Shown: piece after piece, positions 7,302 through 26,002 of the stretch
How the letters are laid out: each line of letters opens with the position of its first letter
Numbering within the stretch: position 1 is the first letter of the stretch
Source of the DNA: Marinilabilia sp.
GTDB lineage: Bacteria; Bacteroidota; Bacteroidia; Bacteroidales; Marinilabiliaceae
Direction of reading: 5' to 3'
Length of the DNA: 64,000 nt
Assembly: GCF_016278715.1 (NCBI RefSeq)
Contig: NZ_JADQBH010000108.1
Span: 6,761-70,760 of the forward strand
Position numbers and translations under genes: made by a program
Notes under the pieces: model-generated
Seen by the model: the letters and a program-made list of their open reading frames with translations, nothing else
What the model was told of the DNA's origin: nothing
Database searches by the model: none

Positions 7302-7311
7302 ACAAAAAACT

Positions 7312-10071: not shown

Positions 10072-10079
10072 TACTTTTG
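10072..10079 (+). promoter_or_regulatory. TAnnTTTG -7 box upstream of purU
   Basis: TACTTTTG 20 nt before the purU ATG. Confidence 0.55.
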
Positions 10080-10099
10080 CAGGCAAAACAGTTACAAAA

Positions 10100-10963: not shown

Positions 10964-10975
10964 AGCTCAAACGTT

Positions 10976-11500
10976 ATGCTCAAATTAAAACATCTTTTTT
11001 TCCTTATGTTGATGGTAACCAACCTCAGCTGTCAGAACACAAAAGACAACCGTGGATACATTGTTGAAGTAGGCGACAAGGCTCCTCTTTTTGAAACAAC
11101 ATTGACCAACGGCGACACGTTTCGGCTTGAAGACCATAAAGGTAAAGTAGTGATGCTTCAGTTTACCGCCAGCTGGTGTGGTGTTTGCCGGAAAGAGATG
11201 CCACACATTGAAAAGGAAATATGGCAACCCTACAAAGACAAAGGTCTTGTGGTTGTGGGCATTGACCGGGATGAACCTCTGGAAACCGTAAGGAAATTTG
11301 CGAAAGAAACAGGCATCAGTTACCCCCTGGCTTTAGACCCCGGCGCTGATATCTTTAAGCTATATGCAGAAGACAGAGCCGGCGTAACGCGCAATGTACT
11401 GATCGACAAGGAAGGGAATATTATTTTTCTGACCAGACTATTCAACGAGAAGGAGTTTTCGGCACTGGTTAATAAAGTTGACCAATTAATGAAGAACTAA
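10976..11500 (+). CDS. TlpA/AhpC-TSA family redoxin, probable lipoprotein
   Basis: FTASWCGVC thioredoxin-fold CxxC; lipobox-like NLSC. Confidence 0.85.
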   Translation: MLKLKHLFFLMLMVTNLSCQNTKDNRGYIVEVGDKAPLFETTLTNGDTFRLEDHKGKVVMLQFTASWCGVCRKEMPHIEKEIWQPYKDKGLVVVGIDRDEPLETVRKFAKETGISYPLALDPGADIFKLYAEDRAGVTRNVLIDKEGNIIFLTRLFNEKEFSALVNKVDQLMKN

Positions 11501-11502
11501 AA

Positions 11503-12102
11503 ATGAAGATTGTAATCATAAAATACAATGCCGGCAACATTCAATCGGTTAGTTTCGCGCTGGAACGGCTGGGATATCAGGCAGAAATAACGGCCGACCA
11601 TGACACCATCCGGAAAGCGGACAAGGTCATTTTTCCAGGAGTGGGCGAAGCCAGTACCACCATGGCCTATCTGAAAAAAGAAGGACTTGACCAACTGATT
11701 CCCTCACTCACTCAGCCTGTGCTGGGTATATGCCTGGGAATGCAACTCATGTGCAGTCATTCCGAAGAAGGAAACACACCGTGTCTGGGCATCTTCGATG
11801 AGAAAGTGAAGAAATTCGTTGCCCCTGTTCAGGATTCGGAAAGATTTAAGATTCCCCACATGGGATGGAACCAGCTCATAAACGTCAAAAAACCGTTGTT
11901 CAGCCAAGAACTGGAGAACGAATTTGTCTATTTTGTCCACAGTTTTTATGTGGCCACCGGCCCGGATACCGCTGCCGAGAGCCATTATATACATCCATTC
12001 AGTGCTGCTCTGAGAAAAAATAATTTTTTCGCAACACAGTTTCACCCAGAGAAGAGCAGTAAGGCGGGGGAGCAGATTCTTAAGAATTTTCTTTCGTTGT
12101 GA
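11503..12102 (+). CDS. hisH: Imidazole glycerol phosphate synthase, glutaminase subunit
   Basis: FPGVG, GICLGMQ, IPHMGWN, YFVHS and QFHPEKS motifs. Confidence 0.97.
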   Translation: MKIVIIKYNAGNIQSVSFALERLGYQAEITADHDTIRKADKVIFPGVGEASTTMAYLKKEGLDQLIPSLTQPVLGICLGMQLMCSHSEEGNTPCLGIFDEKVKKFVAPVQDSERFKIPHMGWNQLINVKKPLFSQELENEFVYFVHSFYVATGPDTAAESHYIHPFSAALRKNNFFATQFHPEKSSKAGEQILKNFLSL

Positions 12103-12183
12103 GAGGAGCCAGGAAGCTGAATACTGGAGGTTAGGCACCCTAGATCCCCCCAAGGGTGACATGAAAAAGATTGGAAGTTAGAG

Positions 12184-12288
12184 CAATAGTCCGTTAAAAA
12201 AAGCTTAAACGCAGAGACGCAATGACGCAAAGTTTTTATTATGAGTGAGTTGTGCCCTGCTCGCCTGGTTTTGTAATGGATTGATTAT
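12184..12288 (+). repeat. ~105-bp direct repeat, copy 1 (hisH-hisA spacer)
   Basis: caatagtccgttaaaaaaagcttaaacgcagagacgcaatgacgcaaagttttt...agtgagttgtg...ttgtaatg, near-identical to 13086-13190. Confidence 0.85.
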
Positions 12289-12344
12289 CAACCGTTTTTA
12301 AAAGTTTAACAGAGTATTGTTAGAGGTTAGAAATTTTATAAAAA

Positions 12345-13076
12345 ATGCAATCAATAGAACTTATACCTGCCATCGACATTATTGACGGAAAATGTGTCAG
12401 ATTGAGCAAAGGAGATTACAGCACACAAAAAACATACAATGAGAATCCACTGGAAGTAGCCAAACAATTTGAAGATTATGGCATCCGGCGTCTTCACCTG
12501 GTCGATTTGGACGGCGCAAAAGCCGGATACATTGTCAACTACAAAGTACTAGAGAAAATTGCCGGACAAACCGCTCTCACCATCGATTTCGGAGGCGGAC
12601 TTAAAACTGTTGAAGACCTGCGGGTAGCATTTGAATGCGGAGCCCAGATGGTCACCGGAGGAAGCATCGCAGTGAAAAACCCGGAGGAATTCCTGCAATG
12701 GCTGACCAAGCACGGCCCGGAAAAGATCATCCTCGGCTCGGATGCCAAAAACCGCAAAATTGCTACATCAGGTTGGCTGGAAACCTCCGAACTCGACCTG
12801 ATGGATTTTCTGAAAGAATACATCGAAAAGGGCATTACCCAGACAATTTGTACCGACATCAGTAAGGATGGAATGCTCGAAGGCCCGTCAACCGATTTAT
12901 ACAAAGAAATTCTTGATAATTTCCCGGAGCTTTATCTCATCGCCAGTGGCGGGGTCAGCAATATGAAAGACATTGATGATCTCGAAGAAGCAGGCGTTCC
13001 TGCGGTAATCTTTGGCAAGGCAATTTATGAAGGCAGGATTGGAATGGAGGAAATTGGGAGGAAAATTAGTGAATAG
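12345..13076 (+). CDS. hisA: ProFAR isomerase HisA
   Basis: [30 protein letters not shown] and ASGG motifs. Confidence 0.97.
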
Positions 13077-14838: not shown

Positions 14839-15393
14839 ATGGTGGGGGTAAACGATTCTGTACTTAAGATTTTTGATAAATACTATTCCGAAATCCACCC
14901 GGCCCGGGAAATTTTAATAACCCACAGCCGGCTGGTTCGTGACAAATGCCTGAAAATTGCATCCAATCATCCCGAGTTGGACGCCGATAAGCAGTTTATT
15001 GCTGAAGCATCCCTGCTTCACGACATAGGAATTTTCTTAACAGACGCCCCTCTTATTGGCTGCCACGGCGAACACCCATACATCTCTCACGGCTATCTGG
15101 GCCGCGAACTACTCGAGAAAGAAGGATTGCCTAAACACGGTTTAGTATGTGAAAGGCATACCGGGACCGGACTTACAGTGGAGGAAATCAAATTGCAGAA
15201 TCTGCCACTTCCCCACCGCGACATGGTTCCCCTGAGCATTGAAGAACAAATCATCTGCTTTTCTGATACCTTTTACAGTAAGGGCAATGATTTGGAGAAA
15301 GAGAAAAGCCCTGAAGAGGTGAAAAAAGCCCTGAAAAAATACGGTGACGAAAAAGTTGAAATCTTTTCTCTATGGTGCGAGATGTTTCTATAG
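14839..15393 (+). CDS. HD-domain (HDIG-type) metal-dependent phosphohydrolase
   Basis: HSRLV...LLHDIG...HGYLG...CERH...FSDTF pattern. Confidence 0.85.
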   Translation: MVGVNDSVLKIFDKYYSEIHPAREILITHSRLVRDKCLKIASNHPELDADKQFIAEASLLHDIGIFLTDAPLIGCHGEHPYISHGYLGRELLEKEGLPKHGLVCERHTGTGLTVEEIKLQNLPLPHRDMVPLSIEEQIICFSDTFYSKGNDLEKEKSPEEVKKALKKYGDEKVEIFSLWCEMFL

Positions 15394-15734
15394 ACATTCA
15401 ACCCGATAACGCCGCATGGTATTATCACCATCCCAAATATCGATATAACTGTGCCCAGGCTATGGTAAAACACTTTGGTGGCAGCGAAGCAGATATTTCC
15501 GGGATGAAAAAGATGGGCTCGGGTCGGGCTCCGGAAGGCCATTGCGGGGCTTTGCATGGCGCCCTCTTTCTGTTAAGTGACAATCAGGACACTCACAAAG
15601 AGATGACCGAGAAATTTGCTCAACAAACAGGCAGTCCTTTTTGTCGAGATATCAGAAAAATCAATAAGGTCTCCTGCCAACAATGTGTTGAAATAGCAGA
15701 TTCACTGCTCAAAAAGATTCAAATACAACCCTAA
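15372..15734 (+). CDS. C-GCAxxG-C-C family putative redox protein
   Basis: YNCAQA, GHCGALHG, FCRDI and SCQQC Cys pattern; start uncertain (overlaps the HD gene). Confidence 0.75.
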   Translation: MVRDVSIDIQPDNAAWYYHHPKYRYNCAQAMVKHFGGSEADISGMKKMGSGRAPEGHCGALHGALFLLSDNQDTHKEMTEKFAQQTGSPFCRDIRKINKVSCQQCVEIADSLLKKIQIQP

Positions 15735-15746: not shown

Positions 15747-16475
15747 ATGCCCACAAAGATCCAGAAAGAACCCATTTCAGTTTCTTCATTCGATGTAGGA
15801 GCATCCGGCTGTTTAGAAGCATCAGCTCTGATGCGTCATTTTCAGGAAGTAGCCTCTCATCATGCCGATGAACTGGGTGTTGGATTCAATGATTTTAAAC
15901 AAGAGAACATTTTCTGGGCTCTGTCACATATTCAGATCGAAGCCGACAGGTGGCCCCAAATGGAAGAAAGAATCACCATAGAAACCTGGCCCAGAGGAAC
16001 CGAAAAGTTATACACCACCAGAGACTTTCTGGTTTCTGATACCAATAATAAGGTTATTATAAGAGCCACTTCCGCATGGATAATGGTGGACATCAAAAGG
16101 AAAAGACCGATCCGACCAGCCGATAAACTAGCAAACATTGAGTTCACTCCTGAGAAAAAAGCCCTCGGAAACTTCCCCGAACCATTCTATTGTGAAGGAG
16201 AACAACAAACCCAATTGGAACGCAAGGTCGTGTATTCCGACCTGGACATCAATCAGCATGTCAACAACACCAGGTATGTTGAGTGGATGATGGATGCTAT
16301 TGGATTTTCTCCCGACAGGAAGTTGAAATCTTTAAAAATTCATTTCATCAACGAATTCCGATTCAACGAAACAGCGCAAATAAATAACACCCACAATAGC
16401 AACCGTTATTTTTGCTCCATCCTCCATGCAGAGAACAAAAAACCAGGTTGTGAAGCATGCCTCACCTTTATGTAA
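15747..16475 (+). CDS. Acyl-ACP thioesterase (double hotdog fold)
   Basis: TWPRG, RDF and YSDLDINQHVNNTRY motifs. Confidence 0.9.
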   Translation: MPTKIQKEPISVSSFDVGASGCLEASALMRHFQEVASHHADELGVGFNDFKQENIFWALSHIQIEADRWPQMEERITIETWPRGTEKLYTTRDFLVSDTNNKVIIRATSAWIMVDIKRKRPIRPADKLANIEFTPEKKALGNFPEPFYCEGEQQTQLERKVVYSDLDINQHVNNTRYVEWMMDAIGFSPDRKLKSLKIHFINEFRFNETAQINNTHNSNRYFCSILHAENKKPGCEACLTFM

Positions 16476-16516
16476 AACGAAACGTCCGTTGATAGTTCCA
16501 ACGGGCGTTTAGTTTT
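16475..16516. terminator. Bidirectional terminator between convergent genes
   Basis: aaacgtccgttg / caacgggcgttt stem with A/T flanks. Confidence 0.7.
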
Positions 16517-16553
16517 CAAGGATTCATTCTTATTGTTGTTGTACGGCTTACTT

Positions 16554-17012
16554 TTAGTCAACTCTCTGCTTAATCTCCGGATTACTACTGTAAGCAGCAA
16601 TCATTTCCTGATACATATCGGGACCGATACCGGCTTCGGAAACAACCTGGCTAACTTCCTGCTGTGCCTCCATCTGGACACTATGAATCTCGTCAGAAAT
16701 ACTTTGGAATATTTGCATATCTTCTTCCTGTACTCCTTCTGGTTCTTTACCCTGTTGCATTTGACGAGCAATTTGATTAAACCGATCCATACCCTGCTCT
16801 TCAATTTCTTTCACCATCTTTTGCTCAGCCTTCTGCTGAATGGGCAATACTTCTAATACCGCTTCAGCAAACCTATCAATCTCTTCAGCAGAATAGTCCT
16901 TCTGCTTCTGTTGTTGCTGTTGATGCATCATTTGCTGCTGAACAGAAACCATTCCTCCCATTACAAACATTCCATATAGAAACATGCTGGCAATTTTTCT
17001 TTTAAACAGCAT
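16554..17012 (-). CDS. Secreted Gln-rich helical protein, DUF4168-like
   Basis: Signal peptide, poly-Q linker, EEIDRFAEA and MDRFNQIA motifs. Confidence 0.65.
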   Translation of the reverse strand: MLFKRKIASMFLYGMFVMGGMVSVQQQMMHQQQQQKQKDYSAEEIDRFAEAVLEVLPIQQKAEQKMVKEIEEQGMDRFNQIARQMQQGKEPEGVQEEDMQIFQSISDEIHSVQMEAQQEVSQVVSEAGIGPDMYQEMIAAYSSNPEIKQRVD

Positions 17013-17470
17013 AAAAATTCTGTTTTATTGTTGAAGGAGAGGTACTCTTATTCAAAATACAAGCGCTTGCCTCAACTTCAATTCAGTTTACAATTCCGCT
17101 CACACACTCATGCATTAATCGGCTGACGTTAAACTTATTAGACACAAGCCGGAAAAACCATATTCCCAACTCCAAACATTTTTCAGAATGACTCCAATTC
17201 TGAAAAATTATTTAACACAATCAAAAAATTTACTATTTAGAAGTAATCTTGTTACAAATTGCAAATTCAAGATATTTGTATTTTTATATATCTGGATTCA
17301 TTGCTAAATTCGAATTCTCATTAAACCCCCTGTCAAACAACATTAAGAAATATATAATTCAAATTAAACCAGACCAATAAATAGTTCGTTGCTCCCAACC
17401 CTCCTAGATGATAAACTTTTATTAACAATATTCGTAACAAAAGCATCACATAACCAACAGCAAACAAAAT

Positions 17471-19066
17471 ATGAAGAAGGTCGTTTTTTCCATCATTTTG
17501 GCTTCAATAGGCATCCTGGCATTGATACACATCGCTTACGACCCACCACTTCCGAATCTGAGCGAGCTGAAACTCAAACAGGAATTTGCCATCAAACCCA
17601 CTTCGTCGGTTGACCACAAACTTTTTGAAGAGCTTCAAAAGGACTTTGATTCTCCTCAGGAAGTTACGGAAGCGTGTATTGCGTGCCACAATCAACGCCA
17701 TAAAGAAGTGATTGCATCCAGCCACTGGAACTGGGAGCGCATCTCGTACGTAGAGGGACGCGGAATCGCCAGCATGGGTAAAAGCAACGTACTCAACAAC
17801 TATTGTATTGGAGCAAGTTCTAATGAACAATCCTGTGCTGCCTGCCACATTGGCTTTGGAATGACCAATAACCGCTTTGACTTTGACAATGCACGAAATG
17901 TGGACTGTATGGTTTGCCACGACAACAGCGAAGAGTACCACAAGGGTTCTGCCATGGCCGGTTATCCGGATCGGTCGGTCAACCTTACCAGTGTAGCTCA
18001 AAGCGTGGGACGTCCCCAAAGGATGAATTGTGGTGCGTGTCACTTTTACAGTGGTGGAGGAAATAACGTTAAGCATGGAGATCTGGAAGAAGCACTTCTT
18101 TCTACAACTCGTGACGTGGATGTGCACATGGCAGCCAACGGAATGAATATGACCTGTGTGGACTGTCACTCTGCCGAGAACCATAACATAAAAGGGAAAC
18201 TTTACTCAGTATCATCAAGTGATGAAAACCGACTGACCTGTGACCACTGCCATACAAGCACTCCACACATGGATCACAACCTTGACTTACATACAGCAAG
18301 GGTAGCCTGTCAGACCTGTCACATTCCGACTTACGCGAAAGTGAACCCTACAAAAATGGAATGGAGATGGTCTGATGCCGGTCGCATGGAAGAAGGTAAG
18401 CCCTTTCATGAGACAGACTCCTCAGGAGTGGAGACCTATATGTCCATCAAAGGCTCCTTCCGTTGGGAGACAAATGTTAAACCGGATTATTATTGGTTTA
18501 ATGGTCATGCCACACATTACGTTTTGGGCGATCAGGTAGACAGCATTCCTGTACAAATTAATCATTTGTTCGGGTCAGCAACAGACAACAGATCGAAAAT
18601 ATATCCTGTGAAAGTTCACCGGGGAGACCAGATCTATGACCCGGAAACCAACATGCTGATTCAGCCAAAACTTTGGGCTGCAGAGGAAGGCGACAGTGCT
18701 TACTGGAAAGATTTTGACTGGAATCTGGCCGCAGAAGCCGGCATGAAACGGGTTGGACTTCACTACAGTGGAACCTATGAATTCGTAAATACCGAAATGT
18801 ACTGGCCCGTTAACCATATGGTGGCCCCAAAAGAAGACGCACTTTCATGTGAAGAATGCCACCAGCGGAAAAACAGCCGACTGGCAGGCCTTAATGACTT
18901 CTACATGCCGGGAAGAGACTCCCATGCTGGACTTGACCTCATCGGGAGACTTCTAATTATTGCCGCCCTTGCCGGAGTTATCCTTCACGGAATGGGCAGA
19001 GTAGTGGCTGCCATCAAAAATAAAGAGATAGAATCGGAAGAAATCAACACCAATTACCACCAATAA
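17471..19066 (+). CDS. otr: Tetrathionate reductase (OTR)-family octaheme cytochrome c with N- and C-terminal hydrophobic helices
   Basis: Eight CxxCH motifs (CIACH, CAACH, CMVCH, CGACH, CVDCH, CDHCH, CQTCH, CEECH); GKSNVLNNYC segment; GGGNNVKHGD. Confidence 0.85.
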   Translation: MKKVVFSIILASIGILALIHIAYDPPLPNLSELKLKQEFAIKPTSSVDHKLFEELQKDFDSPQEVTEACIACHNQRHKEVIASSHWNWERISYVEGRGIASMGKSNVLNNYCIGASSNEQSCAACHIGFGMTNNRFDFDNARNVDCMVCHDNSEEYHKGSAMAGYPDRSVNLTSVAQSVGRPQRMNCGACHFYSGGGNNVKHGDLEEALLSTTRDVDVHMAANGMNMTCVDCHSAENHNIKGKLYSVSSSDENRLTCDHCHTSTPHMDHNLDLHTARVACQTCHIPTYAKVNPTKMEWRWSDAGRMEEGKPFHETDSSGVETYMSIKGSFRWETNVKPDYYWFNGHATHYVLGDQVDSIPVQINHLFGSATDNRSKIYPVKVHRGDQIYDPETNMLIQPKLWAAEEGDSAYWKDFDWNLAAEAGMKRVGLHYSGTYEFVNTEMYWPVNHMVAPKEDALSCEECHQRKNSRLAGLNDFYMPGRDSHAGLDLIGRLLIIAALAGVILHGMGRVVAAIKNKEIESEEINTNYHQ

Positions 19067-19079
19067 CCAACCGAACGTC

Positions 19080-19727
19080 ATGCAAAAAGTATATATCTAT
19101 AAAACATTTGAACGCTTCTGGCACTGGACTCAGGCCGCCTTGATATTCTTTCTGGCCATCACGGGCTTCGAAGTACACGGCAGCTTTTCATTTCTGGGCT
19201 ACGAACAGGCGGTAGAGTCTCATCGCGTCGCAGCGTGGATGCTGTTAATTTTAATCGCCTTTTCCATCTTCTGGCATTTTACCACAGGAGAATGGAGACA
19301 ATACATACCAACTTTTTCCAAGTTACAGGCACAAATGCGATACTACACCATTGGAATCTTCAAAGGAGAGCCCCATCCCACCAGTAAAACCGCCCGGAAA
19401 AAACTCAACCCGCTTCAAGCTTTGACCTATCTGGGATTTAAACTGGTAATGGCTCCACTGTTGGTAATCACCGGCTTTGTCTATATGTTTTATCGCACCA
19501 TCGATGCCAACAACATGGTCATCATCAGCGACATTCCACTAGAGGTAATCGCTTTTCTACATACCCTTGGTGCCTACCTGATTATCATGTTTGCCATTGT
19601 ACATGTTTATATGACCACCACGGGACATACGCCCACATCAAACATCAGGGCCATGCTGACCGGTTACGAGGAGCTGGAAGAAGACAATGAAGAACAAGTA
19701 AAAGAAGAAAACAAAAAACAAGAATAA
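19080..19727 (+). CDS. Membrane b-type cytochrome (Ni/Fe-hydrogenase CytB / PhsC-like)
   Basis: ERFWHW, SHR, FWH, LNPLQ, FLH and IVHVY His pattern over four TM helices. Confidence 0.85.
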   Translation: MQKVYIYKTFERFWHWTQAALIFFLAITGFEVHGSFSFLGYEQAVESHRVAAWMLLILIAFSIFWHFTTGEWRQYIPTFSKLQAQMRYYTIGIFKGEPHPTSKTARKKLNPLQALTYLGFKLVMAPLLVITGFVYMFYRTIDANNMVIISDIPLEVIAFLHTLGAYLIIMFAIVHVYMTTTGHTPTSNIRAMLTGYEELEEDNEEQVKEENKKQE

Positions 19728-19728
19728 T

Positions 19729-20253
19729 ATGGACCAAAAGAACAAATTCATGAATCCCTATCTGGCAGGTGTCCTGCTGGGGTTTGTATTGTTGGCGACC
19801 ATTTACATAACAGGCCGTGGTTTGGGCGCAAGCGGGGCGATGAAAAGTGTTGCAGTTACAACTGTCCGGGCCGCCGCACCGGATCATTACGAATCCACCG
19901 CCTATTACCAGGATTATGCCGCTGATCATCCCGATGGCCCGATGAAATCGTGGTTGGTTTTTGAAATGCTGGGCGTATTGGTTGGTGCATTTCTAAGCGG
20001 AGCCCTTTCGGGACGCCTTGGACTTAAATTGGAAAAAGGCCCTGGCGTAACCAACACCACCCGGATCATTGGCGCCATCATTGGCGGAATACTGTTTGGC
20101 TTCGGCAGTCAGTTGGGACGCGGGTGTACCAGTGGTTCAGCCCTTAGCGGAATGGCTGTGATGTCATTTGGCGGAATTATCACCATGCTGGCCATCTTCG
20201 GTGGCGCCTACGCATTTGCATGGTTTTTCAGAAAATTATGGATAACCCGATAA
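19729..20253 (+). CDS. YeeE/YedE family sulfur-compound transporter
   Basis: MNPYLAG, GLGASG and GRGCTSG conserved motifs. Confidence 0.85.
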   Translation: MDQKNKFMNPYLAGVLLGFVLLATIYITGRGLGASGAMKSVAVTTVRAAAPDHYESTAYYQDYAADHPDGPMKSWLVFEMLGVLVGAFLSGALSGRLGLKLEKGPGVTNTTRIIGAIIGGILFGFGSQLGRGCTSGSALSGMAVMSFGGIITMLAIFGGAYAFAWFFRKLWITR

Positions 20254-20263
20254 AAGGATAAAA

Positions 20264-21463
20264 ATGGCACCATTAATACCGGAAATAATATCTCCCGAAT
20301 ATAACTACCTGATAGCCCTCATTGTAGGACTGGGTTTTGGATTTGCCCTTGAACAGGCAGGTTTTTCGAGCACACGCAAACTAGTAGGACTCTTTTACGG
20401 ATACGATTTTACCGTACTGAAGGTGTTTTTCACCGCGGGCGTTACCGCAATGATTGGAGTAGTCACGCTCTCCCATCTGGAGATGCTCAACACTGAAATC
20501 ATTTTTGTCAACCCCACATTTCTGCCATCAGCCATCACTGGCGGGATAATAATGGGAGCCGGATTCATTATCGGCGGCTTCTGTCCCGGAACCAGTGCTG
20601 CAGCTGCAGCAATCGGAAAATTGGACGGATGGGCCTTTATCGGAGGTGCAACCATCGGCATTTTTGCCTTCGGTGAATTTTATCCACTGCTCGAGGATTT
20701 CTATCTTGCAGGCAATCAGGGTCCACTGCTCTTCTACAATGTACTCGGCATTGAAAGAATTACTTTCGCACTGATTCTGATGGCTGTTGCCATCTTCGCT
20801 TTTGTAGCAACCGGAATGATTGAAGACAAAGTCAATAAGAAACCCGTACATATTCTTAGTGGCAACTGGAAAAACAAAACCATTGCTGCAGCAATTCCCC
20901 TTGCGGTGGTCCTGATATTAATGATCACACCCTCACGCAAGGAATTCACCATGGAGAAGCTGGAAGCACGTGCAGCATCCGGAGAATGCAAACCCGACCT
21001 TATTGATGCCGACAAACTGGCATTTGAGATCATGAACAACTATTATCAGTACAATGTGATTGATGTTCGTTCGGCAGAAGAATACAAGGCATTCCACATT
21101 GCTACGGCAATCAATATCCCATTGGATGATTTGCATAGCACAGCTTACCGAAAATTGCTCAATCAGCGCATTCAAACCAACGTATTTTATGGAGCATCCC
21201 CGGCACAAGCAAAAAAAGCCTGTTTAATTGCCCGGTATCACGGAAACGAGACCAGCCTGGCCCTGAATGTCACTGCCGAAGACTTCAAAAACACCTTTTA
21301 TGGCGAAATAAGCATCCCTGAAAATCCCACAAAATCACAGCAAACCATCGCCCTTTTCAGGCGTCGGGCAGCCGAAAAAATGAAAGAAATCGAAAAAAAC
21401 CTAGCTTCCCGCGAAAAACCGGTACAACAAAAAGTAACAAGAGTTCAGGGAGGATGTAGTTAA
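20264..21463 (+). CDS. YeeE/YedE family protein fused to a rhodanese-like domain and a C-terminal GGCS tail
   Basis: GFALEQAGF and GGFCPGT motifs; IDVRSAEEYKAFHIATAINIP rhodanese signature; ends KVTRVQGGCS. Confidence 0.8.
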   Translation: MAPLIPEIISPEYNYLIALIVGLGFGFALEQAGFSSTRKLVGLFYGYDFTVLKVFFTAGVTAMIGVVTLSHLEMLNTEIIFVNPTFLPSAITGGIIMGAGFIIGGFCPGTSAAAAAIGKLDGWAFIGGATIGIFAFGEFYPLLEDFYLAGNQGPLLFYNVLGIERITFALILMAVAIFAFVATGMIEDKVNKKPVHILSGNWKNKTIAAAIPLAVVLILMITPSRKEFTMEKLEARAASGECKPDLIDADKLAFEIMNNYYQYNVIDVRSAEEYKAFHIATAINIPLDDLHSTAYRKLLNQRIQTNVFYGASPAQAKKACLIARYHGNETSLALNVTAEDFKNTFYGEISIPENPTKSQQTIALFRRRAAEKMKEIEKNLASREKPVQQKVTRVQGGCS

Positions 21464-21609
21464 TCCACAAATTGAATTCCTCCGTATGCCCAAAACATGG
21501 ATTGCAGGAAAAAAAAACCTGATTCATAAAAAAAAACGTGCATCTTAAAATTGTTTTTCAGAACTTGAATAAAAATTTTATTCTATTGTCAAACTGAAAA
21601 TCAAGGGCT

Positions 21610-23604
21610 ATGATGCATGATTACAAACACAAAAACAACATTCTGAGTAGAACCGCATGGGCTGTTCTTTTCAGTTTCATTGTCGCTTTTAGCGCCAACA
21701 GTCAGGTAACGGTCATGGTGGACGACAATGGTGTCGCCTTCACAGATGTTGCCAATCACTCCAGCTGGGCAAATGCCACCAGCGACTTACAGGCAGCCAT
21801 TGATGGTGTTGCTGCTGAACCCGGTGGAGGTGAAGTATGGGTAGCCGGAGGAACTTATCTGCCCACCACTATTCTGGCAGCCGATCCGACAGCCCCTGTA
21901 CCGCCTTTTAACATTCCCGGAGATGCTCTATCCGGCACTGATGCCCGGCAAACTTCATTTGTCATGGCATCCAATGTTCGGGTACTCGGAGGCTTTATGG
22001 GAACCGAGACTTTGGAAGGAGATCGTCCTGATGACTTATTCGCCACAGCTAACAGAGTAACTCTCAGTGGAGACATTGGTGTGGCCAATGACACCACCGA
22101 CAATGCCTATCATGTGGTTTTGTTCCCTCTCGGCGTGGACGACACCGCAATTCTTGAAGGGATGTATGTCACTAAAGGAAATGGGAATTCTGAAAATTAC
22201 TTCGCACACCGGGGGGCTGGCGTCCATGTTCGTGAAGGAGGAACCATCAAAGAGTGTGTCATTACCGACAACTATGCATCAGAAGGAGGAGCTGGCGTTT
22301 ATTTGTACAAAGGAGGGAATCTTGTTTACTCGGAGATTTCCCACAACAAAACCCAACAAAAAGGAGGTGGAGTATTCTTAAACCTCGGTGGGGAAGTACA
22401 ACAATGTCTGATTCACAGCAACACAGCTATTCACCTAACGAAAGCCAATGGAGGAGGAGTGTTCATGGATGCTGACATCACGTCTTTCGGAACCATAACC
22501 CACTCTTTTATTAGCGTAAATTCCTCAGCAAATAAAGGAGGAGGTATGGCTGTTTACGACGGTAGCCTTGTTTCCAATAATTTTATCTCCAACAATGAAG
22601 CAGTCGGAAACGGGGGTGGAATATATTTACAAAACGGGGGTTTGATAATTAACAACACAATAGTCTCAAACTCTTCAGACCTGGGTACCGGAATCTATGC
22701 AAATGAAGGCGGCGAGATTTACAACACAGCGATATGGGGCAATGCTACCCCTTATACTCCCAACGACCAATTCGATTTCATTGATGCAGATGGAACATTT
22801 CAGGTAGTTATTGACCATTGCGCCATTCAGGATGAGACAAACCCATTGTTTACAAATAGCATTACTCTGGATGCAGCCAACACCGGAACAGGAACCCATC
22901 CCTATTTCAGAAATCCCGTCACTTTTGCAGGACTTCCGGCCGATCAGGCCCAGGTTGATGAGATATTCACCAGCGATTACAGAATCAATGTAGAGTCGGC
23001 TCTTCTGGATGCCGGTATTGATAATCCGGGTGGAATTCCTCTCCCCTTGCTGGATCTCGGCGCAACCCCGAGATTGGTTCAATCATCCGTGGACATTGGT
23101 GCTTTCGAAGCAAATTACTCCGATATAACAGGAACAGTTTTCAGTGGCAACGGAACAATTGATCCTATTGTCGCAAAAGTTCTTAATGGTGGAGAAGTCG
23201 TCTTCACCTTAACACCTGAAACAGGTTTTGAGGTTACTACATTTACCATAAATGGAGACGATTTTACCGCAAGTCTTATTCCGGACGGCAGTTCCTTTAC
23301 TTACACAGCAACGGTTACTCAAAACATTGACGCTGTCGTAACCTTTGGAGTCGCCAATAGCCTTAATGAAAATGAAACCGGTGAGTTTAGATTATATCCG
23401 GTTCCGGCCGAAAGAGAATTATTCATTTCAGGGGCTGCAATAAATAAGGTTGAAATCTTCTCGGCCGACGGAAAACTGGTTAAAATAATGGAAGATACGG
23501 ACATCAAATCCATCCCGGTATCCGGTCTTAAGAAGGGCCTTTACTTAATCTCTTTAACCCGCAATTCCGGAGAGATTATAAACACCAGATTTATCAAAAA
23601 ATAA
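21610..23604 (+). CDS. T9SS-secreted parallel beta-helix protein (choice-of-anchor Q-like), paralogue 1
   Basis: Signal peptide, GGG-rich N-x-A-x-x-GGG repeats, VDIGAFE, C-terminal LYPVPA...KGLYLISL sorting domain. Confidence 0.8.
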   Translation: MMHDYKHKNNILSRTAWAVLFSFIVAFSANSQVTVMVDDNGVAFTDVANHSSWANATSDLQAAIDGVAAEPGGGEVWVAGGTYLPTTILAADPTAPVPPFNIPGDALSGTDARQTSFVMASNVRVLGGFMGTETLEGDRPDDLFATANRVTLSGDIGVANDTTDNAYHVVLFPLGVDDTAILEGMYVTKGNGNSENYFAHRGAGVHVREGGTIKECVITDNYASEGGAGVYLYKGGNLVYSEISHNKTQQKGGGVFLNLGGEVQQCLIHSNTAIHLTKANGGGVFMDADITSFGTITHSFISVNSSANKGGGMAVYDGSLVSNNFISNNEAVGNGGGIYLQNGGLIINNTIVSNSSDLGTGIYANEGGEIYNTAIWGNATPYTPNDQFDFIDADGTFQVVIDHCAIQDETNPLFTNSITLDAANTGTGTHPYFRNPVTFAGLPADQAQVDEIFTSDYRINVESALLDAGIDNPGGIPLPLLDLGATPRLVQSSVDIGAFEANYSDITGTVFSGNGTIDPIVAKVLNGGEVVFTLTPETGFEVTTFTINGDDFTASLIPDGSSFTYTATVTQNIDAVVTFGVANSLNENETGEFRLYPVPAERELFISGAAINKVEIFSADGKLVKIMEDTDIKSIPVSGLKKGLYLISLTRNSGEIINTRFIKK

Positions 23605-24004: not shown

Positions 24005-26002
24005 ATGAATGCAACCACCCGCCGAAACTTAAGCTTCCTTTTCACTTTCCTCATTGTCTTCAGCCCACTGGCTTTCATCGATGCTCAGGTAATTGTTAAA
24101 GTCAAGCCTTCCGACAAAGGAGGAATTACATTTTCAGATGTAACCCAACACAATACGTGGGGTACAGCCACCTTCGAATTACAAAAAGCTATTGACGAGG
24201 TTCATGCAAGTGGAGGCGGAGAAGTATGGGTGGCCGGGGGAACCTATCTTCCTACCAGTTATCTTGCTGCAGCCCCCGATGCCCCCAACCCACCACTGCA
24301 GGATCCAGGTGATCCCGGTTCGCCCATCGACGAACGTCAACTTTCATTCATTATGGCCAGTGGCGTGTCTGTTATCGGAGGATTTACCGGGTCTGAAACA
24401 AGCCTGGAACAAAGACCTTCCGACTTTTATGGCAGCGAAAACAAAGTAGTCCTAAGCGGTGACATTGGAACTGCTTCTTTAGCAGAAGACAACGCCTATC
24501 ATGTTGTGATCTTTCCTCCCGAAACAGATAATACGGCCATATTACAAAATGTAGTTATCTCGGGAGGCTATGCCAACGGCCCGGATGCCTATTTCGCAAA
24601 AACAGGAGCAGGTGTCCATATTCGCGAAGGAGGATTGCTAAAAGAGTGCCAGGTTCAGAACAATGTCTCAGCAGGAAGTGGCGGGGGGGTTTACCTCTAT
24701 AAAGGTGGAAAGGTAAGAAACTGTACCATTTTCGAGAACACAGCTTTTGTCCAGGGTGGTGGAGTCTATTCCAACCTTGGAGGCGAAATATCAAGATCGG
24801 CCATCTTTAAAAACACAGCCGGAAATTACATCACTGACGGCAAAGGTGGCGGTGTATTCCTCGTAGCTGATGAAACACAGGAAGGAACCATTACCCATTC
24901 CGCGGTATTTGCCAACAGTTCGACCAACAAAGGTGGAGGAATTGCAACCTATGCAGGAGGCCGTATCATTAATAACTATATCGGGAATAATGAAACAGAA
25001 GGAAAAGGAGGAGGCATTTTTCTCCAGGTCGGCGGGCTGGTATTAAACAGTACAGTAGTCTCAAATGCCGGCGGTCAGGGGGCAGCAATATTTTGTAACG
25101 ACGGGGGCACTGTTTACAATACGGTTATGTGGGGAAATACAACCCCCTACAATAACAACCAACTCTTAACCGATGATGATGATGCAACCTCAAGCACTCC
25201 CCTCTTTGATTTTTGTGCCATTCAGGAGGGAACTTCTACTCCGGAAATCACGAACCTGATCTCCCTTTCTCCGGAAAACACCGGAACCGGAGTCCACCCC
25301 TATTTCAGGAATCCAGTCACATTTGCAGGACTTCCGGCCGACCAGCTCCAAGCTGCTGAGATCTCCGCCAGCGATTACCGAATCAATGTAGAGTCAGCTC
25401 TTCTGGATGCCGGTATTAATAATCCGGGTGGAATTCCCCTTCCTCCTCTTGATCTTGACGCAACTCTACGATTGATTCAGTCGTCAGTGGACATTGGTGC
25501 TTTTGAAGCCGATTACTTCGATATAACAGGAACTGTTTCCATTGGCAACGGGACAATTGATCCTATTGATGCAAAAATTCTTAATAGTGGAGAAGTCCTC
25601 TTCACCTTAACACCTGAGACAGGTTTTGAGGTTACTACATTTACCATAAATGGAGACGATTTTACCCCAAGTCTTATTCCGGACGGCAATTCCTTTACTT
25701 ACACAGCAACGGTTTCTGAAAACATTGACGCAGTCGTAACGTTTGGAGTCGCCAATAGTCTTATAGAAAATAAAACCGGGAAGTTTAGATTATATCCGGT
25801 ACCCGCAGAAAGTGAATTATTCATTTCTGGTGCTTCCATCCAAAAGGTAGAAATCTTCTCAACAGACGGCAAACCGGTTAAAATCATGGAAAAAGTCAAC
25901 ATCTCTTCCATTCCTGTTTCCGGTCTAAAAAGAGGCTTATACTTTATTTCATTAACAGATGATACCGGTAAAGTCATCACAACACGCTTCATTAAGAAGT
26001 AA
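24005..26002 (+). CDS. T9SS-secreted parallel beta-helix protein, paralogue 2
   Basis: Same architecture as 21610-23604; C-terminal LYPVPA...RGLYFISL sorting domain. Confidence 0.8.
   Translation: MNATTRRNLSFLFTFLIVFSPLAFIDAQVIVKVKPSDKGGITFSDVTQHNTWGTATFELQKAIDEVHASGGGEVWVAGGTYLPTSYLAAAPDAPNPPLQDPGDPGSPIDERQLSFIMASGVSVIGGFTGSETSLEQRPSDFYGSENKVVLSGDIGTASLAEDNAYHVVIFPPETDNTAILQNVVISGGYANGPDAYFAKTGAGVHIREGGLLKECQVQNNVSAGSGGGVYLYKGGKVRNCTIFENTAFVQGGGVYSNLGGEISRSAIFKNTAGNYITDGKGGGVFLVADETQEGTITHSAVFANSSTNKGGGIATYAGGRIINNYIGNNETEGKGGGIFLQVGGLVLNSTVVSNAGGQGAAIFCNDGGTVYNTVMWGNTTPYNNNQLLTDDDDATSSTPLFDFCAIQEGTSTPEITNLISLSPENTGTGVHPYFRNPVTFAGLPADQLQAAEISASDYRINVESALLDAGINNPGGIPLPPLDLDATLRLIQSSVDIGAFEADYFDITGTVSIGNGTIDPIDAKILNSGEVLFTLTPETGFEVTTFTINGDDFTPSLIPDGNSFTYTATVSENIDAVVTFGVANSLIENKTGKFRLYPVPAESELFISGASIQKVEIFSTDGKPVKIMEKVNISSIPVSGLKRGLYFISLTDDTGKVITTRFIKK

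What the first reader, a model, noticed from the sequence alone, without database searches (positions are those of the whole stretch)
17471..21463. Four-gene OTR octaheme - cytochrome b - YeeE - YeeE/rhodanese cluster: candidate uncharacterised membrane sulfur-redox and import module in a Bacteroidota
Seen: four tightly packed co-oriented genes (gaps of 13, 1 and 10 nt). They encode an 8xCxxCH cytochrome with hydrophobic helices at both ends, a 4-TM diheme-type cytochrome b, and two single-unit YeeE/YedE proteins that each keep the conserved Cys (GRGCTSG; GFCPGT). Established: Shewanella OTR reduces tetrathionate (and nitrite/hydroxylamine) in vitro and has a Lys-ligated active-site heme; the GKxNxxNNxC segment that I recall carries that Lys is present here (GKSNVLNNYC). 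E. coli YeeE imports thiosulfate via Cys residues. Inference: quinol -> cyt b -> octaheme reduces a polythionate or polysulfide in the periplasm, and a YeeE heterodimer relays the product. This would give a polysaccharide-fermenting anaerobe a sulfur electron sink or sulfur uptake route. I know of no experimental description of this combination.
Basis: partly seen in the sequence, partly recalled or inferred. Interest (0 to 1): 0.78.

Follow-up and report, generated by a model that had tools for sequence, protein, structure and literature searches.

The report
Membrane OTR cytochrome with sulfur-carrier arm
A four-gene unit kept intact across several bacterial phyla joins a membrane-anchored octaheme cytochrome and its cytochrome b to a split sulfur channel carrying a periplasmic "dead" rhodanese domain tipped with a cysteine arm, which points to a sulfur-compound role for an enzyme family whose natural substrate is still unknown.

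Summary
The four genes, the 13/1/10-nt gaps, the 8 CxxCH motifs, GKSNVLNNYC, and the GRGCTSG and GFCPGT motifs are all present.

**Co-conservation.** All 80 genomic loci holding a close OTR relative keep the same order and strand wherever the contig allows. They include MAGs labelled Bacteroidota, Ignavibacteria, Fibrobacteria, Balneolaceae and Delongbacteria. No flanking gene family occurs in more than 11 of the 80 loci.

- The rhodanese domain has no catalytic Cys in 0 of 75 orthologues.
- Two extra transmembrane helices place that domain in the periplasm.
- The protein ends in a disordered, basic arm tipped with GGC(S). This holds in 73/75 orthologues and in 58/60 representatives from a search of 1.84 billion proteins. 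It resembles the GGCGG carrier cysteine of SoxY.
- A second OTR clade pairs OTR–cyt b with a lipoprotein rhodanese that also ends in GGC, plus two more rhodaneses and a porin, and has no YeeE.
- The characterised soluble Shewanella OTR sits in a different operon (cyt c–DUF3373–OTR).

**Best reading.** Menaquinol feeds cyt b, which feeds the anchored OTR. OTR acts on a sulfur species carried by the Cys arm, and a PmpAB-like split YeeE channel moves sulfur across the membrane. Substrate and direction remain unproven. I found no description of this cluster in the searched literature.

The parts
17013..17470 (+). AT-rich 458-bp upstream intergenic region, presumed promoter/regulatory region of the operon
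   Evidence: Sequence read. There is no Rfam family here. The sigma-70-type hits carry little weight for Bacteroidota. No regulator gene is adjacent in the window; a Crp/Fnr-type regulator lies upstream in 6 of 80 related loci.
17471..19066 (+). OTR-family octaheme cytochrome c (531 aa), membrane-anchored form
   Evidence: TIGR04315 scores 579 bits against a cutoff of 375. 1SP3 matches at E=1.6e-126. There are 8 CxxCH. All heme Cys/His, K104 and C112 are invariant in 80/80 orthologues.
17480..17536 (+). N-terminal hydrophobic segment (aa 4-22): export signal or signal anchor of OTR
   Evidence: Hydropathy 2.62. The N-terminus is basic.
17780..17782 (+). Codon of K104, aligned with K56 of Shewanella OTR (GKKNSINNFC), the presumed axial ligand of the catalytic heme
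   Evidence: Alignment. Invariant in 80/80. The role of K56 as heme ligand is from my recollection of Mowat et al. 2004. only confirms a penta-coordinated heme in the N-terminal module.
18929..19006 (+). C-terminal transmembrane anchor of OTR (aa 487-512), with invariant H506 and R510 at its cytoplasmic end
   Evidence: Hydropathy. Present in 79/80 orthologues, with H506 and R510 invariant in 80/80. Absent from the 455-470 aa Shewanella-type OTRs.
19080..19727 (+). Four-TM cytochrome b (215 aa), putative menaquinol dehydrogenase subunit
   Evidence: PF01292 at 1.1e-24. The best NCBIfam model is PhsC, but it falls below cutoff (111 vs 204 bits). H15, H33, H48, H66, H99, H161 and H175 are invariant in 79/79; H161 and H175 are 14 residues apart on TM4. 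Charge bias indicates N-in.
19729..20253 (+). YeeE-A: PmpA-like C-terminal half of a YeeE channel (174 aa)
   Evidence: PF04143 profile positions 175-309. The orthologue profile aligns to StYeeE residues 239-327 at E=6e-7. Charge bias indicates N-in and C-in.
20125..20127 (+). Codon of C133 (GRGCTSG), equivalent to StYeeE C293, the periplasm-facing thiosulfate-contacting Cys
   Evidence: Alignment. Invariant. The role of C293 is described in PMC7449682.
20264..21463 (+). YeeE-B::Rhd-GGC fusion (399 aa): PmpB-like N-terminal half of YeeE, two extra TM helices, a periplasmic rhodanese-like domain and a C-terminal Cys arm
   Evidence: Pfam hits, AF2 model, orthologue alignments.
20582..20584 (+). 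Codon of C107 (GGFCPGTS), equivalent to StYeeE C91
   Evidence: The profile aligns aa 18-110 to StYeeE 5-94. The E-value is weak (0.41) but the register is right. Invariant. PmpB carries the C91 equivalent according to PMC11582611.
20759..20935 (+). TM5 (H7-like), Lys-rich cytoplasmic loop (aa 188-205) and TM6, which return the chain to the periplasm
   Evidence: The loop has a net charge of +4.3 averaged over 75 orthologues. In StYeeE, H1-H6 ends outside and H7 crosses inward. In unfused cassettes, YeeB ends after TM5 and the separate Rhd protein starts with a TM anchor.
20996..21298 (+). Rhodanese-like domain (aa ~245-345) lacking the catalytic cysteine
   Evidence: PF00581. AF2 pLDDT about 85. 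Foldseek TM about 0.75 to single-domain rhodaneses. The catalytic position is G/A/S in 75/75 orthologues, and C320 is not conserved.
21416..21460 (+). Flexible basic C-terminal arm (aa 385-399) ending in G396-G397-C398-S399; the GGC codons are at 21449-21457
   Evidence: pLDDT is below 50 for aa 385-399. GGC(S/A/G) is the C-terminus in 73/75 orthologues and in 58/60 representatives from the exhaustive search. DNA read.

Best explanation
This is a self-contained, membrane-bound respiratory and sulfur-trafficking module built from four parts.

1. The OTR octaheme cytochrome is exported. It stays tethered to the membrane by a C-terminal helix.
2. That helix and the four-helix cytochrome b form a menaquinol:OTR oxidoreductase. 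The layout is the same as in formate dehydrogenase-N, [NiFe]-hydrogenase and thiosulfate reductase, where a periplasmic subunit with a C-terminal anchor sits on a Ni_hydr_CYTB-type cytochrome b.
3. Genes 3 and 4 form a PmpA/PmpB-type split YeeE channel. It keeps the two cysteines essential for YeeE function.
4. The PmpB-like half carries two extra helices. These put a catalytically dead rhodanese-like domain and a flexible, basic arm ending in Gly-Gly-Cys into the periplasm, next to OTR.

Proposed working: the arm cysteine takes up a sulfur species as a covalent adduct. This would be a persulfide or polysulfide from S0/polysulfide, or an S-thiosulfonate from tetrathionate or thiosulfate. OTR uses quinol electrons to release it reductively and regenerate the thiol. 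The channel under the arm passes one sulfur species (thiosulfate or sulfane sulfur) across the membrane.

Shown: the anatomy, the topology signals, the conservation and the recurrent partnership. Inferred: complex formation, covalent loading of Cys398, the substrate, and the reductive direction.
For: **Gene order.** All 80 genome loci keep the four-gene order wherever the contig allows, across MAGs labelled from several phyla. The flanks are not conserved; the most frequent neighbour family occurs in 11/80 loci.

**Reciprocal test.** Divergent fusion proteins found without any context information lead back to the same arrangement:
- P0508 gives MerR-OTR-cytb-YeeA-YeeB::Rhd.
- P0390 and P0386 give cytb-YeeA-YeeB::Rhd on short contigs.

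**OTR.** The anchor is present in 79/80. H506, R510, K104 and the 8 CxxCH are invariant in 80/80. Cyt b has 7 invariant His.

**Periplasmic location of the Rhd-GGC module.**
- YeeE topology from the crystal structure together with the charge bias.
- Unfused versions start with a TM anchor.
- Type II versions carry lipoprotein signal peptides.

**The GGC tail defines the family.** It is present in 73/75 orthologues and 58/60 representatives, and it is disordered in the AF2 model. SoxY's C-terminal GGCGG cysteine is an established sulfur-binding site (PMC6067878).

**Independent second architecture.** Here OTR-cytb is followed by a lipoprotein Rhd ending in SSGGC, a 2-domain Rhd, a Porin_O_P-like protein and another 2-domain Rhd, with no YeeE. 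This links the arm to OTR itself.

**Other OTR-carrier associations.** OTR lies next to SoxY-S3/SoxZ in lucinid symbionts (PMC11237559). An octaheme SirA-like cytochrome clustered with rhodaneses is upregulated on thiosulfate in Dethiobacter (PMC10376724).

**YeeE cysteines.** C133 corresponds to StYeeE C293 and C107 to C91. The PmpAB heterodimer idea and SoxYZ-to-SoxT import come from PMC11582611.
Against: - There is no experimental or expression data for this cluster. No RNA runs were available.
- In vitro, Shewanella OTR is better at reducing nitrite and hydroxylamine than tetrathionate. A Shewanella Δotr mutant has no tetrathionate phenotype.
- The arm is basic, while YeeE's outer vestibule is described as positively charged, so docking of the arm into the channel is not obviously favoured.
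- The rhodanese-like domain is inactive in the fused form, and its role is unexplained.
- One fusion variant (P0391) sits without cyt b or YeeA neighbours.
- The 80 genome loci are the closest relatives (at least 56% identity) out of 566 confirmed hits, so conservation is shown for this clade and not for all OTRs.
- No multimer model was possible, so physical contact between the four proteins is not shown.
Confidence: 0.55

Rival explanations
1. The anchored OTR reduces free tetrathionate or polysulfide with quinol electrons, and the split YeeE imports the thiosulfate produced. The rhodanese-like domain and its tail are accessory, for example a substrate-binding lid, and carry no covalent sulfur.
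For: OTR reduces tetrathionate in vitro. otr transcripts rose 36-fold in tetrathionate-amended sediment (PMC8528874). YeeE/TsuA is a demonstrated thiosulfate importer, and C133 corresponds to its thiosulfate-contacting C293.
Against: This model does not explain why a terminal GGC is kept in 73/75 orthologues and 58/60 distant representatives. It also does not explain why the same tail follows OTR-cyt b in clusters that lack YeeE. The tetrathionate role of OTR is not supported genetically in Shewanella.
Confidence: 0.17
2. A molybdenum-independent thiosulfate or sulfite route. Periplasmic sulfurtransfer splits thiosulfate into sulfite plus a persulfide on the carrier arm. OTR then works as an MccA/SirA-like sulfite (and persulfide) reductase, and the channel takes up sulfane sulfur.
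For: The 2026 Shewanella ANA-3 study suggests OTR may reduce sulfite. Type II clusters carry three rhodaneses with active-site Cys plus an anion-porin-like outer-membrane protein. The Dethiobacter octaheme/rhodanese cluster is induced on thiosulfate. The cyt b is closest to PhsC.
Against: In the window's type I cluster the only rhodanese domain is catalytically dead. OTR lacks the copper site that the ANA-3 paper cites as distinguishing MccA. No assay of any kind exists.
Confidence: 0.13
3. The module runs oxidatively. OTR oxidises sulfide or thiosulfate and couples it to the carrier cysteine, as SoxXA does with SoxY. Electrons pass through cyt b to the quinone pool, and the bound sulfane sulfur is imported through the YeeE channel.
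For: There is a close formal analogy with SoxXA/SoxYZ and with the proposed SoxYZ-to-SoxT1A import. OTR sits next to SoxYZ variants in sulfur oxidisers. By my own thermodynamic estimate, sulfide oxidation to sulfane sulfur with menaquinone is feasible.
Against: The carriers are mostly fermentative or anaerobic Bacteroidota, Ignavibacteria and similar groups from sulfidic sediments. The tetrathionate/thiosulfate couple is +198 mV; by my estimate (menaquinone near -74 mV, recalled) thiosulfate oxidation with menaquinone is uphill. No Sox partners are seen in the flanks.
Confidence: 0.08
4. OTR here is a nitrite/hydroxylamine reductase or detoxifier, and the YeeE genes are merely neighbours with a separate sulfur-uptake role.
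For: [quoted passage not shown] Genome papers often assign OTR to nitrite reduction.
Against: The linkage to the YeeE and Rhd-GGC genes is invariant, with gaps of 1-13 nt, while the flanks vary. The rhodanese linkage is repeated in a second OTR clade.
Confidence: 0.05

Closest known systems
Shewanella oneidensis octaheme tetrathionate reductase (OTR, PDB 1SP3)
   Same: It belongs to the same protein family: 47% identity over 407 aligned positions, E=1.6e-126, and TIGR04315 above its cutoff. It shares the eight CxxCH, the GK(x)N..NN(F/Y)C segment with the conserved Lys, and the free Cys.
   Different: The Shewanella enzyme is soluble, at 455-470 aa with no C-terminal anchor. It is encoded as cyt c-DUF3373-OTR, without cyt b, YeeE or rhodanese, and it is thought to receive electrons from CymA. 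The window's enzyme is anchored and has its own cytochrome b and sulfur-handling partners.
PmpA/PmpB split YeeE proteins and full-length YeeE/TsuA and SoxT transporters
   Same: There are two adjacent half-size genes. One corresponds to the N-half carrying the C91 equivalent and the other to the C-half carrying the C293 equivalent, as PMC11582611 describes for PmpB and PmpA.
   Different: The halves here are larger, at 174 and 399 aa against about 130 aa. The B half adds an H7-like helix, a further helix, a periplasmic rhodanese-like domain and a GGC arm. All TsuA and YedE NCBIfam models score far below their cutoffs. No YeeD/TsuB partner gene is present.
SoxYZ carrier protein of the Sox system
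   Same: Both are periplasmic proteins whose reactive group is a cysteine flanked by glycines at the extreme C-terminus, GGCGG in SoxY against GGC(x0-2) here. Both work, or are proposed to work, with c-type cytochromes. SoxYZ is proposed to feed sulfur to a YeeE-like importer, SoxT1A.
   Different: The fold is unrelated: rhodanese-like here, not the SoxY fold. No SoxZ is present. The module is membrane-tethered or fused to the channel. It occurs in anaerobic fermenters and not in sulfur oxidisers. This is an analogy, not homology.
Wolinella succinogenes Sud (periplasmic polysulfide-sulfur transferase) with PsrABC
   Same: In both, a periplasmic rhodanese-fold protein with a single functional cysteine would serve a membrane-bound, quinol-dependent sulfur reductase. 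The Sud references are Klimmek et al. 1999 and Lin et al. 2004, as listed. The concept is from my own knowledge.
   Different: Sud's cysteine sits in the rhodanese active-site loop. Here that position is G/A/S and the cysteine is on a C-terminal arm. The reductase is a multiheme cytochrome, not a molybdoenzyme.
FdnGHI / HyaABC / PhsABC-type anchoring (Ni_hydr_CYTB cytochrome b plus a partner subunit with a C-terminal TM helix)
   Same: The cytochrome b has four TM helices with conserved His on TM1, TM2 and TM4. The two TM4 His are 14 residues apart, and the periplasmic partner carries a single C-terminal TM helix. The comparison with FdnI and HyaC is from established knowledge.
   Different: The partner is an octaheme cytochrome c, not an Fe-S subunit. 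The PhsC, hydrogenase and Fdh-gamma equivalog models all score below their cutoffs. Seven His are invariant instead of four.

Membership tests
OTR family (NCBIfam TIGR04315, 'tetrathionate reductase family octaheme c-type cytochrome') | Whole-protein score above the curated cutoff | tested here: met
   579.1 bits against a cutoff of 375, covering model positions 1-440.
OTR family (NCBIfam TIGR04315, 'tetrathionate reductase family octaheme c-type cytochrome') | Eight CxxCH heme-binding motifs | tested here: met
   Motifs at aa 69, 122, 146, 187, 229, 257, 280 and 460. Invariant in 80/80 orthologues.
OTR family (NCBIfam TIGR04315, 'tetrathionate reductase family octaheme c-type cytochrome') | Lys that ligates the catalytic heme (K56 in 1SP3) | tested here: met
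   K104 aligns to the first K of GKKNSINNFC, chain position 56, and is invariant in 80/80. That K56 is the ligand is recalled from Mowat 2004 and was not verified here.
OTR family (NCBIfam TIGR04315, 'tetrathionate reductase family octaheme c-type cytochrome') | Soluble periplasmic protein, as characterised in Shewanella | tested here: not met
   A C-terminal TM helix is present in 79/80 orthologues. It is absent from the 455-470 aa Shewanella-type proteins.
OTR family (NCBIfam TIGR04315, 'tetrathionate reductase family octaheme c-type cytochrome') | Tetrathionate (or nitrite/hydroxylamine) reductase activity | not testable with these tools
   This needs an enzyme assay. The physiological substrate of the family is unresolved.
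Ni_hydr_CYTB dihaem cytochrome b (PF01292) | Pfam score above gathering threshold; four TM helices | tested here: met
   87.7 bits against 30.1, covering profile positions 2-179 of 179. Four hydrophobic segments.
Ni_hydr_CYTB dihaem cytochrome b (PF01292) | Four His ligands for two hemes b (TM1, TM2, and two on TM4 spaced 14 apart) | tested here: met
   H15, H48/H66, H161 and H175 are invariant in 79/79. The assignment to heme ligands is by analogy with FdnI, from established knowledge.
Thiosulfate reductase cytochrome b subunit PhsC (NF011582 equivalog) | Score above the equivalog cutoff | tested here: not met
   111.4 bits against a cutoff of 204. It is the best hit but not a member.
Full-length YeeE/TsuA thiosulfate transporter | Single polypeptide of about 330-350 aa with nine TM helices and three conserved Cys (C22, C91, C293) | tested here: not met
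   The protein is split into two genes, and only the C91 and C293 equivalents are kept. TsuA models score 41 and 26 bits against cutoffs of 400 and 645.
PmpA/PmpB-type split YeeE pair | Two adjacent half-size genes, with the N-half carrying the C91 equivalent and the C-half the C293 equivalent | tested here: met
   Pfam halves at positions 4-196 and 175-309. Profile alignments to StYeeE. Definition taken from PMC11582611.
PmpA/PmpB-type split YeeE pair | About 130 aa, four TM helices each, no extra domains | tested here: not met
   The proteins are 174 aa and 399 aa. The B half has six TM helices plus a rhodanese-like domain.
Rhodanese sulfurtransferase | Rhodanese alpha/beta fold | tested here: met
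   PF00581 scores 32 bits against 22. The AF2 domain has pLDDT about 85. Foldseek gives TM about 0.75 to BH2092, RDL2 and TSTD1.
Rhodanese sulfurtransferase | Catalytic Cys at the start of the active-site loop | tested here: not met
   The position after the 'FY' strand is G/A/S in 75/75 orthologues. C320 lies in the next helix and is not conserved.
SoxY sulfur carrier | C-terminal GGCGG with a sulfur-binding Cys | tested here: inconclusive
   GGC(x0-2) at the C-terminus in 73/75 and 58/60 sequences, with some GGCG(x) variants. Sulfur binding was not tested.
SoxY sulfur carrier | SoxY fold and a SoxZ partner | tested here: not met
   The fold is rhodanese-like. No SoxY or SoxZ family hit in Pfam or NCBIfam and none in the flanks.

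The most novel reading that the evidence does not exclude
OTR-family cytochromes in these bacteria do not act on free anions. They act on sulfur covalently held by a previously unrecognised class of periplasmic carrier: a rhodanese-fold domain with a C-terminal Gly-Gly-Cys swinging arm. Together with a dedicated cytochrome b, and either a split YeeE channel or a porin/rhodanese set, this would form a molybdenum-independent, carrier-mediated sulfur respiration or uptake pathway. It would be a reductive counterpart of SoxXA/SoxYZ, and it could explain why assays with free tetrathionate have failed to reveal OTR's physiological role.
Probability: 0.3. Interest if true: 0.85.

Novelty: new variant of a known kind. 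Interest (0 to 1): 0.68.

Why it matters
The 2026 Shewanella ANA-3 paper says the physiological function of OTR has not been confirmed experimentally since Mowat et al. proposed it in 2004. Meanwhile otr is widely used as a marker for 'tetrathionate reduction' in metagenomic surveys.

This cluster supplies a conserved set of partners that constrains the answer. There is a private quinol-linked cytochrome b, a periplasmic cysteine arm and a sulfur channel. Together they turn the question into concrete experiments: what is bound to Cys398, and does OTR release it?

The cluster also defines a small, coherent family of GGC-tailed rhodanese-like proteins as candidate sulfur carriers.

If the module works as proposed, polysaccharide-fermenting Bacteroidota and Ignavibacteria would have a molybdenum-free way to use sulfur compounds as an electron sink or sulfur source. 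Their relatives recur in metagenomes from sulfidic, subsurface and mine-drainage settings. That would change how otr counts are interpreted in sulfur-cycle budgets.

Tried and rejected
- **Expression evidence.** No RNA run is indexed for this sequence, only DNA metagenomes. Co-transcription and induction could not be tested.
- **Regulatory RNA.** No Rfam family lies in 16400-21800. The sigma-70 and terminator scans give near-background counts and do not suit Bacteroidota promoters, so I did not use them.
- **Cytochrome c maturation genes.** None lie in the 64-kb window, which holds trp and his operons and polysaccharide-utilisation loci. Invariance of all heme-binding residues across 80 genomes argues that the protein is matured.
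- **An active rhodanese using C320.** Rejected. C320 is not conserved and lies in the helix after the loop.
- **A cytoplasmic YeeD-like acceptor role for the rhodanese domain.** Rejected on topology and on the signal anchors and lipoprotein signals of the unfused forms.
- **Single-sequence search of gene 4 against the PDB.** It did not find YeeE. A profile was needed, and the match for the B half remains weak (E=0.41).
- **A conserved fifth gene or regulator.** None was found. The best flank family occurs in 11/80 loci (sigma-54 response regulator) and Crp/Fnr in 6/80.
- **The Shewanella operon as a model.** Its context is different.
- **A multimer model of the four proteins.** The tools available could not run one.

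Full report
**1. The observation.**

All are on the + strand, separated by 13, 1 and 10 nt.

- Gene 1 (531 aa) has eight CxxCH motifs and no CxxCK. It has a hydrophobic N-terminus (aa 4-22), a hydrophobic C-terminal segment (aa 487-512), and the segment GKSNVLNNYC at aa 103-112.
- Gene 1 scores 579 bits on NCBIfam TIGR04315, 'tetrathionate reductase family octaheme c-type cytochrome', against a cutoff of 375.
- Gene 1 aligns over 417 residues with the crystallised Shewanella OTR, 1SP3, at E=1.6e-126. K104 sits opposite K56.
- Gene 2 is a PF01292 Ni_hydr_CYTB cytochrome b.
- Gene 3 matches the C-terminal half of PF04143 (Sulf_transp).
- Gene 4 matches the N-terminal half of PF04143 plus PF00581 Rhodanese.

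The closest OTR is from Marinilabilia salmonicolor at 92% identity, so the window comes from a Marinilabiliaceae bacterium. The same contig occurs in mine-drainage metagenomes.

**2. Is the cluster real, that is, co-conserved?**

I scanned one genome per species of GTDB with conserved OTR peptides. This gave 566 confirmed hits, and the 80 closest (56-89% identity) were fetched with flanks. I called ORFs and searched them iteratively with the window's proteins.

Every locus has OTR, cyt b, YeeE-A and YeeE-B::rhodanese in the same order and strand, except where the contig ends. The set includes MAGs labelled Marinilabiliaceae, Prolixibacteraceae, Cyclobacteriaceae, Lutibacter, Lentimicrobiaceae, Ignavibacteria, Melioribacteraceae, Fibrobacteria, Balneolaceae and Delongbacteria.

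Clustering of all flanking ORFs found no family present in more than 11 of the 80 loci. The frequent neighbours are a sigma-54 response regulator, DUF134, a peroxiredoxin and a Crp/Fnr regulator. The four genes therefore travel as an autonomous unit.

I also ran the reciprocal test. Divergent fusion proteins found by a context-blind search lead back to the same cluster:

- P0508 gives MerR-OTR-cytb-YeeA-YeeB::Rhd.
- P0390 and P0386 give cytb-YeeA-YeeB::Rhd on short contigs.
- There is one exception, P0391, which has no such neighbours.

**3. Anatomy of the electron-transfer half.**

In 80 orthologues all 24 heme-binding residues, K104, C112 and two residues of the C-terminal helix (H506, R510) are invariant. 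The hydrophobic C-terminal helix is present in 79 of the 80. The tail after that helix is net positive. That fits a periplasmic catalytic domain with a C-terminal membrane anchor.

The cytochrome b keeps H15, H33, H48, H66, H99, H161 and H175 in 79/79 sequences. H161 and H175 are 14 residues apart on the fourth helix. From established knowledge, this is the spacing of the two TM4 ligands in FdnI-type dihaem cytochromes b. In FdnGHI and HyaABC a periplasmic subunit with a single C-terminal helix packs against such a cytochrome b.

The best NCBIfam model for the cytochrome b is PhsC, the thiosulfate reductase subunit. It scores well below cutoff (111 vs 204 bits), so this is a relative and not a member.

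I infer, but have not shown, that OTR and cyt b form a menaquinol:OTR oxidoreductase.

The characterised Shewanella-type OTRs differ in three ways:

- They are 455-470 aa and stop before the anchor.
- They are described as soluble.
- They sit in a different operon, monoheme cyt c-DUF3373-OTR.

**4. Anatomy of the sulfur half.**

According to the YeeE crystal-structure paper, the N-terminus is outside, helices H1-H6 end outside, H7 crosses inward, and H8-H13 have the inverted topology. C91 and C293 are essential, and C293 contacts thiosulfate from the periplasmic side (PMC7449682).

Li et al. 2024 showed that half-size PmpB and PmpA correspond to the N- and C-halves of YeeE. They carry the C91 and C293 equivalents respectively, and the authors proposed a heterodimer (PMC11582611).

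An orthologue profile of gene 3 aligns to StYeeE residues 239-327 at E=6e-7, with C133 on C293. A profile of gene 4 aligns residues 18-110 to StYeeE 5-94, with C107 on C91. That E-value is weak (0.41) but the register is consistent. So the pair is PmpAB-like.

Gene 4 continues beyond the PmpB-like part in this order:

- a fifth helix (H7-like);
- a Lys-rich loop with net charge +4.3, averaged over 75 orthologues;
- a sixth helix;
- the rhodanese-like domain.

By the positive-inside rule and the known YeeE topology, this places the domain in the periplasm.

Two further observations support that placement.

- Some loci carry unfused cassettes. In these, YeeE-B ends after the fifth helix, and the next gene encodes a ~205-aa protein that starts with a single TM anchor followed by the same domain.
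- In a second type of cluster the domain is preceded by a lipoprotein signal peptide.

**5. The rhodanese domain is dead, and the tail is the conserved feature.**

Aligning 75 orthologues shows G, A or S at the position of the rhodanese catalytic cysteine in every one.

The fold itself is intact. The AF2 model has pLDDT about 85 over the domain. Foldseek gives TM-scores of about 0.75 to the single-domain rhodaneses BH2092, RDL2 and TSTD1.

What is conserved is the extreme C-terminus. A long helix (aa 357-384) is followed by a disordered, Lys/Arg-rich stretch ending in Gly-Gly-Cys, optionally followed by Ser, Ala or Gly. This holds in 73 of 75 orthologues, and the two exceptions look truncated.

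An exhaustive HMMER search with residues 225-399 against 1.84 billion representative proteins found only 242 hits at E≤1e-3. Of 60 fetched hits that cover the tail, 58 end in GGC(x0-2), and several end in GGCG(x).

A cysteine flanked by glycines at the very C-terminus of a periplasmic protein is the hallmark of SoxY. There the GGCGG cysteine carries the sulfur intermediates of the Sox pathway (PMC6067878). The resemblance is functional, not homologous.

**6. A second, independent architecture links the arm to OTR.**

One locus (L076) carries a paralogous OTR at 51% identity, also with a C-terminal anchor. It has its own cytochrome b followed by rhodanese genes. Scanning metagenome contigs with that OTR returned 26 loci.

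OTR and cyt b are always adjacent. In most loci long enough to show it, the order is:

1. OTR and cyt b;
2. a ~171-aa lipoprotein rhodanese with an active-site Cys (CKKGQRG) and a Gly/Ser-rich tail ending in SSGGC;
3. a two-domain rhodanese lipoprotein;
4. a Porin_O_P-like outer-membrane protein;
5. another two-domain rhodanese.

No YeeE is present in this type.

A third arrangement occurs in L093 and L102. Here YeeE-A, YeeE-B and two Rhd proteins ending in GGGCD, plus a larger rhodanese, lie immediately upstream of OTR. The cytochrome b in these loci is fused to a PAS domain.

The common denominator of all three types is an anchored OTR, a cytochrome b and a periplasmic GGC-tailed rhodanese-fold protein. 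This is the main reason I think the arm works with OTR and not only with the channel.

**7. What the literature adds.**

- The physiological substrate of OTR is unresolved. A 2026 study found that a Δttr Δotr mutant of Shewanella sp. ANA-3 handled tetrathionate like the Δttr strain. It notes that nitrite and hydroxylamine are the best in vitro substrates and suggests sulfite (PMC12949373).
- In sediment microcosms an acidobacterial otr was induced 36-fold by tetrathionate (PMC8528874).
- In lucinid symbionts otr lies next to a divergent soxY/soxZ pair (PMC11237559).
- In Dethiobacter a distantly related octaheme cytochrome is clustered with rhodanese proteins and is upregulated on thiosulfate (PMC10376724).
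- Genome and metagenome papers treat otr as a stand-alone marker.
- I found no paper that describes the four-gene cluster, the anchored form or the GGC tail.
- Public annotations of gene 4 are generic.

**8. Mechanism.**

The best-supported reading has three steps.

1. Menaquinol is oxidised by the cytochrome b, and electrons pass to the anchored OTR in the periplasm.
2. The GGC arm picks up a sulfur species as a covalent adduct and presents it to OTR, which releases it reductively.
3. The PmpAB-like channel beneath the arm moves one sulfur species across the membrane.

Shown here: the parts, their conservation, the topology signals and the recurrent partnership. Inferred: complex formation, covalent loading, the substrate and the direction.

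The rivals are these:

- a thiosulfate/sulfite route in which OTR acts like MccA;
- an oxidative SoxXA-like mode;
- a nitrite-reductase role with unrelated neighbours.

The last is the least compatible with the invariant linkage.

**9. Limits.**

- No expression data exist for this sequence.
- Cytochrome c maturation genes are not in the window, and the rest of the genome could not be searched.
- The genome survey covers the closest 80 of 566 hits, so strict conservation is shown for this clade only.
- The identity of K56 as the heme ligand rests on my recollection of Mowat et al. 2004. One search confirms only that the penta-coordinated heme lies in the N-terminal module.

**10. Verdict.**

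The follow-up sharpens it in three ways:

- the rhodanese domain is an inactive, periplasmic scaffold;
- the conserved reactive element is a SoxY-like C-terminal cysteine arm;
- the same arm accompanies OTR-cyt b pairs in other gene arrangements.

This is a new variant of known kinds of system: a quinol-linked multiheme reductase combined with a sulfur carrier and channel. It offers a concrete handle on the unresolved function of OTR.

Noticed in passing
window 49169-50805 (- strand): The SusD gene of the xylan-type polysaccharide-utilisation locus is split into two ORFs that overlap by 4 nt. One is the SusD-like_3 N-part, 382 aa (49657-50805). The other is the SusD_RagB C-part, 163 aa (49169-49660). 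This is a frameshift, either a pseudogene or a sequencing error.
   Followed up: partly
window 21610-23604 and 24005-26002 (+): Two paralogous proteins of about 665 aa lie directly downstream of the cluster, each with a type IX secretion C-terminal sorting domain (Por_Secre_tail). They share long identical C-terminal stretches. Their function is unknown, and they are not conserved next to the cluster in other genomes.
   Followed up: partly
L076 1036-6665 (-); L082-L095 around 7000-12700: Type II OTR clusters run OTR, cyt b, a lipoprotein rhodanese with active Cys and an SSGGC tail, a two-domain rhodanese lipoprotein, a Porin_O_P-like outer-membrane protein and another two-domain rhodanese. 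This looks like an envelope-spanning sulfur-anion system without YeeE.
   Followed up: yes
L093 5673-6752 and 8690-9793; L094, L095: In some OTR clusters the cytochrome b is fused to a C-terminal, presumably cytoplasmic, PAS domain of 359-389 aa in total. This suggests redox or ligand sensing built into the quinol dehydrogenase subunit.
   Followed up: partly
window 19080-19727 and 18929-19006: The cytochrome b keeps seven invariant histidines, although two hemes b need only four. The OTR membrane anchor keeps an invariant His506 and Arg510 at its cytoplasmic end. This may be a composite quinol site or an extra cofactor.
   Followed up: no
L108 2814-6401; L110 2900-6383; L109 5001-8028: Soluble Shewanella- and Marinobacter-type OTR genes are preceded by a monoheme cytochrome c and a ~570-aa DUF3373 protein. 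A Desulfuromonas contig has two OTR genes in tandem.
   Followed up: partly
L115 822-2036: One YeeE-B::rhodanese fusion (P0391) retains a rhodanese catalytic Cys (LYCRTQRR) together with the GGCG tail, and it has no cyt b or YeeE-A neighbour on its short contig. It may be an ancestral or differently wired form.
   Followed up: no
window 15372-15734 (+): A small C_GCAxxG_C_C 'putative redox-active protein' lies 1.7 kb upstream of the cluster, between an HD-domain protein and an acyl-ACP thioesterase. It is conserved only in the closest relatives, so it is probably unrelated.
   Followed up: partly
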